The notes beneath the pieces were generated by a model. That model had not been told where the DNA came from. It searched no databases and saw nothing but the letters and a program-made list of their open reading frames with translations. The position numbers were made by a program, and so were the translations under genes. DNA of 15,393 bases from a virus (lineage: Duplodnaviria > Heunggongvirae > Uroviricota > Caudoviricetes): positions 1 through 15,393 of IMG/VR virus record IMGVR_UViG_2675903609_000002. One strand, 5' to 3'. Of the stretch, positions 9,798-12,106 are shown piece after piece (within the stretch, counting starts at the first letter, position 1; each line of letters begins with the position of its first letter).

Positions 9798-10124
9798 TCA
9801 AATAAGTGGTTTGCTGCCTAATTTCATTTTCTGGCGACCAACACAAGTCACACCCATTTCACTGCGTGGCTTGCTGTACCATGTGCGCTGATTCTTGCGC
9901 TCAATACGCTGCAGGTTGCTTTCAATCTGTTCGTGGTATTCAGCCAGCACCGTAAGGTCTATCGGATTCAGTGCGCTTTCTACTCGTGATTTCGGTTTGC
10001 GATTCAGCGAGAGAATAGGGCGGTTAACTGGTTTTGCGCTTACCCCAACCAACAGGGGATTTGCTGCTTTCCATTGAGCCTGTTTCTCTGCGCGACGTTC
10101 GCGGCGGCGTGTTTGAGAGTCCAT
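9798..10124 (-). CDS. N: Antitermination protein N, 108 aa
   Basis: MDSQTRRRERRAEKQAQWKAANPLLVGVSAKPVNRPILSLNRKPKSRVESALNPIDLTVLAEYH... is near-identical to lambda N (Arg-rich motif intact), differing mainly in the C-terminal ~20 aa. Confidence 0.95.
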   Translation of the reverse strand: MDSQTRRRERRAEKQAQWKAANPLLVGVSAKPVNRPILSLNRKPKSRVESALNPIDLTVLAEYHEQIESNLQRIERKNQRTWYSKPRSEMGVTCVGRQKMKLGSKPLI

Positions 10125-10165
10125 ATATCATCCTCAGATAAATGGCCCCTCAGCGGGGCCGACAG

Positions 10166-10294
10166 TTATTGGCAGGTTGCGTACTTGCTGATGCAGGAGA
10201 AGATTTCCACGATTCGCGTCATTGTTGTTTCAGGACGCTTTGCTTCATCACGCATTGACTTCAACCAAGCCATAAAGTGTTCGTTATGTTTCAT
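10166..10294 (-). CDS. Small ORF, 42 aa, inserted between the N leader and N (not in ORF track)
   Basis: ACAGGAG-ATGAAC-ATG: it uses the SD that precedes N directly in lambda. Translation MKHNEHFMAWLKSMRDEAKRPETTMTRIVEIFSCISKYATCQ. A GGCCCC-GCUGA-GGGGCC hairpin (10144-10160) follows. Confidence 0.35.
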   Translation of the reverse strand: MKHNEHFMAWLKSMRDEAKRPETTMTRIVEIFSCISKYATCQ

Positions 10295-10561
10295 GTTCAT
10301 CTCCTGTCAGTTAGCTTTGGTGGTGTGGTGGCTGGTAGTCTAGCTCCAGCTTGTTGAGTCTCATTCGGAGGGGTATAACCGGCACCCCAGCGATTTTTCC
10401 ATGCGACAACGTGCGCGTTATGGCGGCCTTATCGCCCGCGGCTCCCCATCTCGTCCACGCTATTGCTAGCGTTGGGAGCGCTTCACCGCTCAACAGTAGG
10501 TAAGCACTTGCCAGTGACTAGCTGGCTTCACCACACCCCAAAGCCTTCTGCTTTGAATGCT

Positions 10562-10592
10562 GCCCTTCTTCAGGGCTTAATTTTTAAGAGCC
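10562..10592 (-). promoter_or_regulatory. nutL (boxA-like + boxB hairpin)
   Basis: Minus strand reads GGCTCTTAAAAATTAA-GCCCTGAAGAAGGGC. The boxB hairpin matches lambda nutL as I recall it; boxA has G where lambda has C at its first position. Confidence 0.8.

Positions 10593-10753: not shown

Positions 10754-12106
<1,353 letters not shown>

What the first reader, a model, noticed from the sequence alone, without database searches (positions are those of the whole stretch)
10301..10560. Enlarged, GC-rich structured PL leader with a long-range helix
About 200 nt between nutL and the N-proximal SD is bracketed by a perfect 9-bp inverted repeat (GGTGTGGTG at 10322-10330, CACCACACC at 10529-10537), which in the RNA pairs GGGGUGUGGUG with CACCACACC. 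It contains two similar internal hairpins (GCCAG...CUGGC at 10510-10526 and GCUGG...CCAGC at about 10331-10350). Lambda has a shorter leader with a similar terminal helix that I recall as the RNase III site controlling N translation. Here the interior is different and longer, so it could be a variant processing site or an inserted structured element.
Basis: partly seen in the sequence, partly recalled or inferred. Interest (0 to 1): 0.4.

Follow-up and report, generated by a model that had tools for sequence, protein, structure and literature searches.

The report
Swappable structured-RNA cassette in phage N leader
The long-range helix is real and matches the known RNase III-processed stem in the leader of phage lambda's N gene, but here it encloses a different 198-nt folded RNA, one of about 20 interchangeable RNA "cassettes" (one of them a tRNA) that related phages carry at exactly this spot.

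Summary
The helix is really about 15 bp with one bulged A (10543-10529 with 10330-10315).

Its arms are identical to those of lambda's N leader. The GU-rich 5' arm sits where nutL boxC sits. Only the 198-nt interior (10528-10331) differs from lambda. That interior is 100 % identical in Sf6, HK446, HK544, HK633, mEp043, mEp213 and Sf101. It is unannotated there and matches no Rfam family.

Among about 177 related leaders I found about 20 unrelated interiors between the same arms:
- The ten outer base pairs never change, and the inner five covary with the cassette (0/500 shuffles reach the observed values).
- Several interiors show compensatory changes.
- One cassette scores as a tRNA, and three or four carry canonical T-loop hairpins.
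- The window's cassette has first and last hairpins with complementary loops, which resembles a tRNA elbow.

N starts 176 nt further on, at 10124.

Best reading: a lambda-type, RNase III-processed N-leader helix with a modular interior. Whether the excised RNA acts in trans is open.

The parts
10585..10592 (-). nutL boxA (GGCUCUUA)
   Evidence: Aligns with lambda CGCUCUUA and with the annotated boxA of HK544. Position taken from the leader string.
10562..10576 (-). nutL boxB hairpin GCCCUGAAGAAGGGC
   Evidence: Identical to lambda nutL boxB. Annotated as nutL in Sf6 and HK544.
10539..10555 (-). Local hairpin CAAAGC-AGAAG-GCUUUG, which competes with the outer part of the long-range helix
   Evidence: Predicted at -5.1 kcal/mol, and it forms in the fold of the transcript truncated before the 3' arm. 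Its loop varies (AGAAG/AGAAA/AGCAA) while its stem is constant among leaders. Function is inferred only.
10529..10543 (-). 5' arm of the long-range helix (CUUUGGGGUGUGGUG), a GU-rich element in the boxC position
   Evidence: Identical to lambda up to GGGGUGUG. Pair probabilities >=0.995. Covaries with the 3' arm across about 20 cassette types. nut sites are defined as boxA-spacer-boxB-boxC (PMC2724277), and rrn boxC UCUGUGUGGG lies in the 5' strand of the leader-trailer helix (PMC10250234).
10331..10528 (-). 198-nt interior, 'cassette type A'. GC-rich, multi-helix, non-coding
   Evidence: 100 % identical in 19 phage records and in 60/5426 E. coli genomes. No Rfam family and no tRNA/tmRNA call. 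14 distinct variants found. A 1-nt deletion variant (L038) frameshifts the only long ORF.
10510..10526 (-). First hairpin GCCAG-CUAGUCA-CUGGC, 2 nt after the 5' arm (the D-arm position)
   Evidence: Loop bases UAGUC are invariant in all 14 variants while the neighbouring C varies.
10457..10472 (-). Hairpin ACGCUA-GCAA-UAGCGU with a GNRA tetraloop
   Evidence: This is the only pair in the type-A interior with a compensatory change (C-G to U-A in L161). The loop changes GCAA to GUAA, and both are GNRA.
10331..10350 (-). Last hairpin GCUGG-AGCUAGACUA-CCAGC, abutting the 3' arm with no spacer (the T-arm position)
   Evidence: Loop bases GACUA are complementary to UAGUC of the first hairpin and are invariant, while 3 neighbouring loop positions vary (hypergeometric p = 0.015). 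Types D and L190 have a canonical T-loop (UUCGACU) hairpin at the same place.
10315..10330 (-). 3' arm CACCACACC-A-CCAAAG (bulged A at 10321)
   Evidence: The arm plus linker plus SD are exact in 41/45 leaders that were retrieved by the 5' anchor alone, and the other 4 differ by one base.
10301..10305 (-). Shine-Dalgarno AGGAG. This is lambda's N SD, but here it serves ORF44
   Evidence: The alignment with lambda, Sf6 and HK544 shows CTGACAGGAGA shared and then an insertion in the window.
10166..10300 (-). Inserted 44-codon orphan ORF (RefSeq calls a 42-aa version, WP_000682198.1)
   Evidence: ORF list. Absent from all phage records and present in 8/5426 E. coli genomes, where it is annotated 'hypothetical protein'. 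A single homologous cluster and no PHROG family.
10144..10160 (-). GC hairpin GGCCCC-GCUGA-GGGGCC followed by AUUUAUCU. It is terminator-like and lies between ORF44 and N
   Evidence: Terminator-like hit in the consensus scan. Part of the same insertion. Function not tested.
9798..10124 (-). N antiterminator gene (108 aa) with a new SD (GAGGA, about 10133-10137)
   Evidence: phrog_271 'anti-termination protein N-like', E = 2.4e-26. ORF list.

Best explanation
This is the N-leader of the PL transcript of a lambdoid phage of the Sf6/Sf101/mEp043 kind.

Right after nutL (boxA, boxB), a GU-rich boxC-like strand (10543-10529) pairs about 200 nt downstream with CACCACACC-A-CCAAAG (10330-10315). This forms a ~15-bp helix with one bulged A, and it is the same helix that closes lambda's RNase III-sensitive N-leader structure.

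The helix folds away the intervening RNA and places the nutL-bound N/Nus/RNA-polymerase complex next to the Shine-Dalgarno that lies 10 nt beyond the 3' arm. In lambda this arrangement lets N repress translation in cis. RNase III, by cutting the helix, disconnects nutL from the mRNA and relieves the repression.

The 198-nt interior is a self-contained, exchangeable folded module (cassette type A). Its first and last hairpins flank the helix in a tRNA-like topology and probably kiss (UAGUC/GACUA), which helps bring the two arms together. The invariant arms also act as homology patches through which cassettes are swapped between phages.

In this window the regulated SD belongs to an inserted 44-codon ORF. 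N follows behind a GC hairpin with its own SD, so control of N is probably relayed through that ORF.

Shown here: the helix, its homology to lambda, its covariation, cassette modularity, and the non-coding nature of the interior.
Inferred: RNase III cleavage, translational control, the kissing interaction, and relay through ORF44.
For: - Arms identical to lambda and interior replaced.
- Helix pair probabilities >=0.995 in the full leader. Fold z = -3.74.
- Across 33 distinct arm pairs from about 20 cassette types, 95.2 % of cells are paired against 86.5 % in shuffles (0/500). There are 32 double-change cells against 9.1 (0/500). Slid registers give 39-52 %.
- The ten outer bp, the bulge position, the linker and the SD are almost invariant even where boxB, N and the cassette differ.
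- Lambda precedent: nutL about 200 nt upstream of N, N+Nus at NutL repress N translation, the intervening RNA is highly structured, and RNase III modulates this (PMC5725501). nut = boxA/boxB/boxC. In rrn, boxC is the 5' strand of the RNase III leader-trailer helix.
- Modularity: the same ORF44+N downstream unit carries type D in E. coli genomes and type A in the window. Type A also occurs with a different boxB (L018).
- Interiors are selected folds: compensatory pairs in types G (3), B (2), N/J (4) and A (1).
- Non-coding: a frameshift variant, no protein family, and a TTG start without an SD.
Against: - No experimental data on cleavage or translation exist for this leader. The lambda primary papers could not be read here, and my placement of lambda's cuts (about +88 and +197, next to the bulged A) is recollection only.
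- Within type A nearly all pairs are invariant. Only one is compensatory, and a few predicted interior pairs are broken in L018/L161, so the interior fold is not established.
- If only compaction were needed, short hairpins should win. Yet the largest, GC-rich cassette is the commonest (55 of 165 leaders), which hints at an additional function.
- In this window the helix no longer abuts N.
Confidence: 0.7

Rival explanations
1. Cargo RNA. The helix is a processing cassette like the rrn leader-trailer helix. RNase III excision releases the ~200-nt interior as a stable RNA that acts in trans, for example as a tRNA-like decoy, a sponge for a host factor, or an anti-defence RNA. It would be made from the very first phage transcript. 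This is compatible with the cis role.
For: - About 20 unrelated, GC-rich, structurally selected interiors at one site.
- One cassette passes the Rfam tRNA threshold (34.8 bits against 29) and ARAGORN.
- Canonical T-loop hairpins next to the 3' arm in types D and L190, and one in L151.
- tRNA-like topology and complementary terminal loops in types A and I (p about 0.015 and 0.004).
- The largest cassette is the most frequent and is near-invariant.
- The rrn analogy: boxC helix encloses a functional RNA.
- Phage tRNAs are documented counter-defence tools (preprint 10.64898/2026.07.10.737580).
Against: - There is no evidence that the excised RNA is stable or binds anything.
- No Rfam family matches any cassette but one.
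- Most cassettes are not tRNA-like.
- Near-identity of type A may reflect recent spread instead of selection, because the flanks are equally conserved.
- An anti-Old library screen of HK446, which carries type A, recovered a protein and not this region.
Confidence: 0.22
2. tRNA-like RNase P site. The cassette mimics a tRNA (acceptor-like helix, T-like and D-like hairpins, ACCA after the helix), so that RNase P and tRNA 3'-end enzymes, instead of or in addition to RNase III, sever nutL from the mRNA.
For: - L031 is tRNA-like by two tools, with its acceptor made of the conserved arms.
- T-arm hairpins stack directly on the 3' arm in D, L190 and L031.
- A 2-3-nt connector between helix and first hairpin in A, D, I and L190 resembles tRNA positions 8-9.
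- A/G + CCA follows the inner helix in all leaders.
Against: - The window's cassette is rejected by ARAGORN and Rfam, as are D and L190.
- Its T-position loop is 10 nt and has no T-loop consensus.
- The distance from the T-like stem to the 'ACCA' is 9 bp in A/D and 6 bp in L031, and lambda has no T-arm, so the ACCA is not consistently placed.
- The 'CCA' is base-paired in the outer helix.
Confidence: 0.08
3. The interior is functionless filler. On this view it is mosaic debris left by illegitimate recombination between phages, tolerated because only the arms matter.
For: - The interiors are unrelated to one another and have no database family.
- Truncated or rearranged leaders exist (L013, L037, H89).
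Against: - Compensatory substitutions in interior helices of four cassette types.
- GNRA loop retained through a change.
- All interiors fold stably at -0.41 to -0.53 kcal/mol per nt.
- A recurring T-loop motif is not expected in debris.
Confidence: 0.1
4. The interior encodes the 60-aa protein annotated in phage Bas106 (Bas106_0045; window 10493-10311, minus strand).
For: An open frame of 60 codons exists and one genome annotates it.
Against: - TTG start with no SD.
- The frame runs through the 3' arm.
- Variant L038 has a 1-nt deletion that frameshifts it.
- No PHROG family.
- All other records leave it unannotated.
Confidence: 0.02

Closest known systems
Phage lambda N-leader structure with its RNase III site (rIII) between nutL and the N ribosome-binding site
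   Same: Same position on the PL transcript. The flanks are identical (PL to GGGGUGUG, and CACACCACCAAAGCUAACUGACAGGAGA). The closing helix has the same bulged A, and the SD sits at the same distance.
   Different: The interior is 198 nt here against about 90 nt in lambda and is unrelated in sequence. It is a multi-hairpin fold with a tRNA-like topology, not lambda's hairpin. In this window the SD serves an inserted ORF and not N. Cleavage is untested.
rrn operon leader-trailer helix containing boxC (RNase III site that brackets 16S rRNA)
   Same: An antitermination signal (boxA/boxB) is followed by a GU-rich boxC strand that pairs long-range with a downstream trailer and encloses a folded RNA. 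Helix structure matters more than sequence (PMC10250234).
   Different: The box order differs (boxB-boxA-boxC in rrn). The rrn helix is longer (25-40 bp). The rrn cargo is a known functional RNA, whereas the cargo function here is unknown.
tRNA, the tmRNA tRNA-like domain, and engineered 'tRNA scaffolds' for RNA expression (the last from my own knowledge)
   Same: A helix closed by the 5' and 3' ends, a last hairpin stacked on the 3' strand, a first hairpin 2 nt after the 5' strand, loop-loop contact, and a large insert where the anticodon arm would be. A true tRNA-like cassette sits at this site in L031.
   Different: The window's cassette fails both tRNA detectors and has no T-loop consensus. 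Its loop contact would be Watson-Crick kissing. There are 9 bp plus a further 6 bp of helix in place of a 7-bp acceptor stem.
HK022 put RNA (a structured RNA in the PL/PR leaders that modifies RNA polymerase; PMC9378689 listed)
   Same: A folded cis-RNA immediately downstream of an early lambdoid promoter.
   Different: put replaces N/nut. Here nutL and N are intact. There is no sequence or architectural similarity, and no evidence of RNA polymerase binding.
Lambdoid 'boundary sequences' (annotated as bsq in Sf6; the concept is from my own knowledge of the HK620/Sf6 papers)
   Same: Short conserved stretches flanking interchangeable modules in the early-left operon. The arms behave this way for the cassette.
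   Different: The arms are also the two strands of a selected RNA helix (covariation), so they are more than recombination linkers.

Membership tests
Lambda-type N-leader long-range helix (nutL boxC strand + complement; rIII) | Lies on the PL transcript between nutL boxB and the first downstream Shine-Dalgarno | tested here: met
   boxB is at 10576-10562, the helix arms at 10543-10529 and 10330-10315, and the SD at 10305-10301.
Lambda-type N-leader long-range helix (nutL boxC strand + complement; rIII) | Both arms homologous to lambda's arms | tested here: met
   The alignment is identical up to GGGGTGTG and from CACACCACCAAAGC onward.
Lambda-type N-leader long-range helix (nutL boxC strand + complement; rIII) | The helix is under selection (covariation) | tested here: met
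   15 pairs: 10 invariant and 5 covarying across about 20 cassette types. 0/500 shuffles reach the observed pairing, double changes or covariation score. Slid registers give 39-52 % paired.
Lambda-type N-leader long-range helix (nutL boxC strand + complement; rIII) | Cleaved by RNase III | not testable with these tools
   Needs end-mapping in wild type against rnc. The lambda precedent is known only from the literature.
Lambda-type N-leader long-range helix (nutL boxC strand + complement; rIII) | Mediates N/NUTL-dependent repression of the adjacent cistron | not testable with these tools
   Needs reporter fusions with and without N and with and without rnc.
Lambda-type N-leader long-range helix (nutL boxC strand + complement; rIII) | The adjacent cistron is N | tested here: not met
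   In the window ORF44 (10300-10166) and a hairpin intervene, and N starts at 10124. The same leader does abut N in Sf6, HK544 and Bas106.
tRNA / tRNA-like (Rfam RF00005, ARAGORN) | Scores above threshold with a tRNA covariance model or ARAGORN | tested here: not met
   Window: no hit. The L031 cassette at the same site does score: 34.8 bits against a gathering score of 29, called tRNA-Pro(AGG).
tRNA / tRNA-like (Rfam RF00005, ARAGORN) | 7-nt T-loop of consensus UUCRANY on a 5-bp stem stacked on the acceptor | tested here: not met
   The window has the 5-bp stem in the right place but a 10-nt loop, AGCUAGACUA. Types D and L190 have UUCGACU.
tRNA / tRNA-like (Rfam RF00005, ARAGORN) | D-loop/T-loop elbow contact | tested here: inconclusive
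   UAGUC and GACUA are complementary and invariant while 4 neighbouring loop positions vary (p = 0.015). The analogous GCUGA/UCAGC pair is seen in type I (p = 0.004). No direct structural evidence.
tRNA / tRNA-like (Rfam RF00005, ARAGORN) | 7-bp acceptor stem followed by a single-stranded NCCA | tested here: not met
   There are 9 bp, then A, then CCA, but the CCA is paired with UGG in the outer helix. The spacing varies between cassette types.
Protein-coding gene (Bas106_0045-like, 60 aa) | Reading frame preserved among variants, with a recognisable start signal or family | tested here: not met
   Frameshift in L038, TTG start without an SD, no PHROG family.
Dispersed repeat / MITE with terminal inverted repeats | Multiple copies in unrelated genomic contexts | tested here: not met
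   Median of 1 copy per positive E. coli genome, and every full-length copy examined lies in this prophage PL-leader context. No hits elsewhere in phage records.

The most novel reading that the evidence does not exclude
The nutL boxC helix of lambdoid phages may be a dedicated RNA-expression and processing site, a miniature counterpart of the rrn leader-trailer helix. Phages would load it with interchangeable structured 'cargo' RNAs: about 20 kinds so far, including a tRNA and several tRNA-like scaffolds such as the one in this window. RNase III would excise these from the first transcript made after infection or induction, and they would act in trans on the host, for example as decoys for tRNA-targeting or RNA-sensing defences or as sponges for host factors. 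Their diversity would reflect an arms race.
Probability: 0.2. Interest if true: 0.85.

Novelty: new variant of a known kind. Interest (0 to 1): 0.55.

Why it matters
Lambda's N leader is a textbook case of coupling between transcription antitermination, RNA processing and translation. It has been treated as a single structure.

The data here show that only the closing helix and its flanks are fixed, and that the enclosed RNA is a hypervariable, structurally selected module. That splits the element into a constant regulatory part and a variable part.

It also gives natural cassette-swap experiments for testing how the interior affects N autoregulation and RNase III control. And it raises a testable possibility that lambdoid phages deliver small structured RNAs, including tRNA-like ones, from their earliest transcript.

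Practically, none of the phage and RefSeq records examined annotates this RNA (one annotates a spurious ORF), and Rfam has no family for it. A family definition would improve annotation of prophages in about 16 % of complete E. coli genomes (863/5426 have this leader type).

Tried and rejected
- **Rfam.** I used gathering and permissive thresholds on the window, and on representatives of nearly all cassette types. The only hit was the L031 tRNA. The weak algC, ES003 and RSV_PBS hits are chance or boxB look-alikes.
- **ARAGORN.** No tRNA or tmRNA in the window or in the A, D or L190 loci.
- **Prophage anti-sRNAs (AgvB/AsxR).** These map to the PR' moron site, not to PL. The Pas sRNA preprint does not mention this region.
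- **Coding hypothesis for the 60-aa ORF.** Rejected.
- **Link to P2 Old tRNase evasion by HK446.** The anti-Old factors are gp27/Oad2 and a separate Thr tRNA, not the leader.
- **General tRNA-likeness of all cassettes.** Rejected. Loop-loop complementarity is significant in only 1-2 of 17 testable types.
- **'ACCA' as a true tRNA 3' end.** Rejected because its spacing from the T-like stem is inconsistent.
- **Lambda primary papers** (PMC126142, PMC275398, PMC3545037). Not held, and several full-text searches were swamped by 'Nutlin'.
- **Covariation within type A.** Too little variation: 14 variants at 99 % mean identity.
- **Non-enteric hits in the species-representative genome scan.** All are the lambda-type leader on lambda-sized or tiny low-coverage contigs, so they are contamination and not host range.

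Full report
**1. Context**

The window is an early region of a lambdoid phage transcribed leftward on the minus strand. It carries a 434/Sf6-type repressor (11787-11155) and cro (11759-12106). A lambda-like N gene (108 aa, 10124-9798) hits phrog_271 at E = 2.4e-26. As a whole it is 97-99 % identical to Sf101, Sf6 and mEp043 over the parts they share. By alignment with lambda and the annotated HK544 record:
- the PL transcript starts at about 10625;
- nutL boxA is 10592-10585;
- nutL boxB is 10576-10562.

**2.

The helix is longer than reported. CUUUGG-GGUGUGGUG (10543-10529) pairs with CACCACACC-A-CCAAAG (10330-10315), giving 15 bp with one bulged A. Every pair has probability >=0.995 in the ensemble of the full leader.

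The 260-nt region folds better than shuffles (z = -3.74). A 9-bp inverted repeat alone would occur in 4.3 % of shuffles, so homology and covariation carry most of the weight.

**3. What the arms are**

Alignment with lambda shows the two leaders are identical from PL through GGGGUGUG and again from CACACCACCAAAGCUAACUGACAGGAGA. Only what lies between differs: 198 nt here against about 90 nt in lambda.

The literature I could read says the following:
- Lambda nutL lies about 200 nt upstream of N. N plus Nus factors at NutL repress N translation. The intervening RNA is highly structured, and RNase III modulates the repression (PMC5725501, citing Wilson 1997 and 2002).
- nut sites are defined as boxA-spacer-boxB-boxC (PMC2724277).
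[quoted passage not shown] That helix's structure matters more than its sequence (PMC10250234).

The GU-rich 5' arm here occupies the boxC position. From memory only, since the primary papers are not held, RNase III cuts lambda's leader near +88 and +197. That falls in the invariant outer helix beside the bulged A.

**4. The interior is one cassette among many**

The 198 nt are 100 % identical in 19 phage records: Sf6, Sf101, HK446, HK544, HK633, mEp043, mEp213, Bas106 and 720R6. They are present at >=98 % identity in 60 of 5426 complete E. coli genomes, always in prophages. Only Bas106 annotates anything there, a 60-aa 'hypothetical protein'.

I anchored searches on the 3' arm plus SD and, independently, on the 5' arm. 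This retrieved about 177 leaders from viral contigs, species-representative genomes and metagenomes. They fall into about 20 unrelated interiors of roughly 45-200 nt between the same arms.

Credible hosts are E. coli/Shigella, Citrobacter, Yokenella, Pseudescherichia and other Enterobacteriaceae. Each representative genome carries a different cassette. Hits in unrelated taxa are all lambda itself, so they are contamination.

**5. The closing helix is selected**

I built an arms-only alignment of 33 distinct arm pairs. The ten outer base pairs never vary. The five inner ones change with the cassette and stay complementary:

| Measure | Observed | Shuffled mean | Shuffles reaching observed |
|---|---|---|---|
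| Cells paired | 95.2 % | 86.5 % | 0/500 |
| Double-change cells | 32 | 9.1 | 0/500 |
| Covariation score | 0.205 | 0.058 | 0/500 |

Slid registers give only 39-52 % paired.

Among 45 leaders retrieved by the 5' anchor alone, the 3' arm plus linker plus SD is exact in 41 and off by one base in 4. This holds even though boxB, N and the cassette differ among them.

**6. The interiors are folded RNAs, not filler or genes**

Compensatory changes occur inside other cassette types: G has 3 pairs, B has 2, and N/J have 4.

For type A I found 14 distinct variants among 58 complete copies. Two are usefully diverged, with 12 and 13 differences. The results:
- There is only one compensatory pair, in the hairpin ACGCUA-GCAA-UAGCGU (10472-10457). 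Its loop changes GCAA to GUAA, and both are GNRA.
- Most other predicted pairs are invariant, and a few are broken. The detailed interior fold is therefore not established.

The 60-codon frame starts with TTG, has no SD, is frameshifted in variant L038 and matches no family. It is not a gene.

**7. A tRNA-like theme in a subset**

- The cassette of L031 scores as a tRNA (Rfam 34.8 bits against a threshold of 29; ARAGORN tRNA-Pro(AGG)). Its acceptor stem is made from the conserved arms.
- Types D and L190 end in a canonical T-arm (loop UUCGACU) stacked directly on the 3' arm, and L151 contains a UUCGAUU hairpin. However, D and L190 fail the tRNA and tmRNA models.
- The window's type A has the same topology: helix, 2 nt, first hairpin ... 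last hairpin, 0 nt, helix. Its loops contain complementary UAGUC and GACUA. These ten bases are invariant while four adjacent loop positions vary (p = 0.015).
- Unrelated type I has the analogous GCUGA/UCAGC pair (p = 0.004).
- Most cassettes show nothing of the kind, and the 'ACCA' after the inner helix is not consistently spaced from the T-like stem. The arms are therefore not a genuine tRNA end.

**8. What is different in this window**

Between lambda's N SD (CAGGAGA) and the N ATG, the window has a 176-nt insertion (10300-10125):
- a 44-codon ORF (10300-10166);
- a GC hairpin with a U-rich tail (10160-10144, terminator-like);
- a new SD for N.

The insertion is in no phage record and in 8 of 5426 E. 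coli genomes. The ORF is an orphan.

Those genomes combine it with the type-D cassette. I verified this in three; the other five show the same two-piece 63-66 % coverage. The window's combination of type A with ORF44 is in none of them. That is direct evidence that cassettes are exchanged independently of what lies downstream.

Any N-mediated control exerted at this SD would reach N only indirectly. One inferred route: a ribosome terminating 5 nt before the hairpin opens it and exposes N's SD.

**9. Mechanism and rivals**

I commit to the lambda-type cis mechanism (confidence 0.7). The boxC-strand helix compacts the leader and places the nutL-bound antitermination complex by the SD. It is the RNase III site, and the interior is an exchangeable folding module.

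Rivals:
- The main rival, which is not exclusive, is that the excised interior is a functional trans-acting RNA (0.22). In its favour are the number, stability and structural selection of the cassettes, the tRNA at this site, and the rrn analogy. Against it is the total lack of evidence for a stable product or a partner.
- RNase P processing (0.08), functionless filler (0.1) and coding (0.02) are weaker, for the reasons given in their entries.

**10. Novelty**

The helix and its role are known from lambda. This interior is already sequenced in several phages but is undescribed and is in no RNA family. I found no paper describing cassette polymorphism of the N leader, but my literature access was limited. 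Older work may have noted that lambda, 21 and P22 keep the 'form but not the sequence' of this region (recollection of Franklin 1985).

I therefore classify the finding as a new variant of a known kind. The cassette system is a moderately surprising and readily testable extension.

Noticed in passing
window 10125-10300 (minus strand): A 176-nt insertion sits exactly between lambda's N Shine-Dalgarno and the N ATG. It contains a 44-codon orphan ORF (MNMKHNEHF...), a terminator-like GC hairpin (10160-10144) and a new SD for N. It is present in only 8/5426 E. coli genomes and in no deposited phage, and it may couple N expression to translation of the small ORF.
   Followed up: partly
L031 369-450 (minus strand of locus; IMGVR_UViG_3300011794_000001): In this lambdoid contig the N-leader cassette is a tRNA-like sequence: Rfam tRNA 34.8 bits, ARAGORN tRNA-Pro(AGG), 82 nt, with an expanded anticodon region. 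Its acceptor stem is formed by the conserved leader arms.
   Followed up: partly
window 10539-10555 (minus strand): The outer 5' strand GCUUUG can also pair locally with an upstream CAAAGC, a direct repeat of the CCAAAGC in the 3' arm. This gives a 6-bp hairpin (-5.1 kcal/mol) whose loop varies among leaders. It would form first during transcription and could gate completion of the RNase III-length helix.
   Followed up: partly
L005 2797-5099 and L006 1497-2586 (E. coli Ecol_545 and C1): An IS21-family element (ISEc12, istA/istB) is inserted just after the start of N in two of the prophages that carry ORF44, so those prophages have a disrupted N.
   Followed up: no
L013, L037 (viral contigs) and NZ_CP044293.1 503215-503305 (hit H89): Truncated leaders in which the 3' part of a cassette (type A or B) is joined to unrelated coding DNA. 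In H89 it lies inside a 'packaged DNA stabilization protein' gene. This suggests rearrangement breakpoints within cassettes, or assembly chimeras.
   Followed up: no
L008/L056/L097 and L192-L196, cassette type J: This short cassette contains GCG-UGAAAAA-GCGC, which closely resembles the same phages' own boxB (GCGCUGAAAAAGCGC). It could be a second, degenerate N-binding hairpin inside the leader. In L192-L196 the bulged A of the closing helix is G.
   Followed up: no
L127-L149 (genome-contig scan): Lambda-type leader sequences turn up in assemblies of Marinifilum, Nocardioides, Pseudomonas, Shewanella, Neobacillus and others, on lambda-sized (~48 kb) or tiny low-coverage contigs. These are almost certainly lambda DNA contamination in public genome assemblies.
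   Followed up: partly
many leaders, immediately 3' of the 5' arm (window 10531-10525, minus strand): A recurrent GGUGAAG/GGUGAAU motif follows the 5' arm in otherwise unrelated cassettes (A, B, D, I, J, K, N, L190). It recurs inside types A and D as GCGGUGAAG. I have no explanation for it.
   Followed up: no
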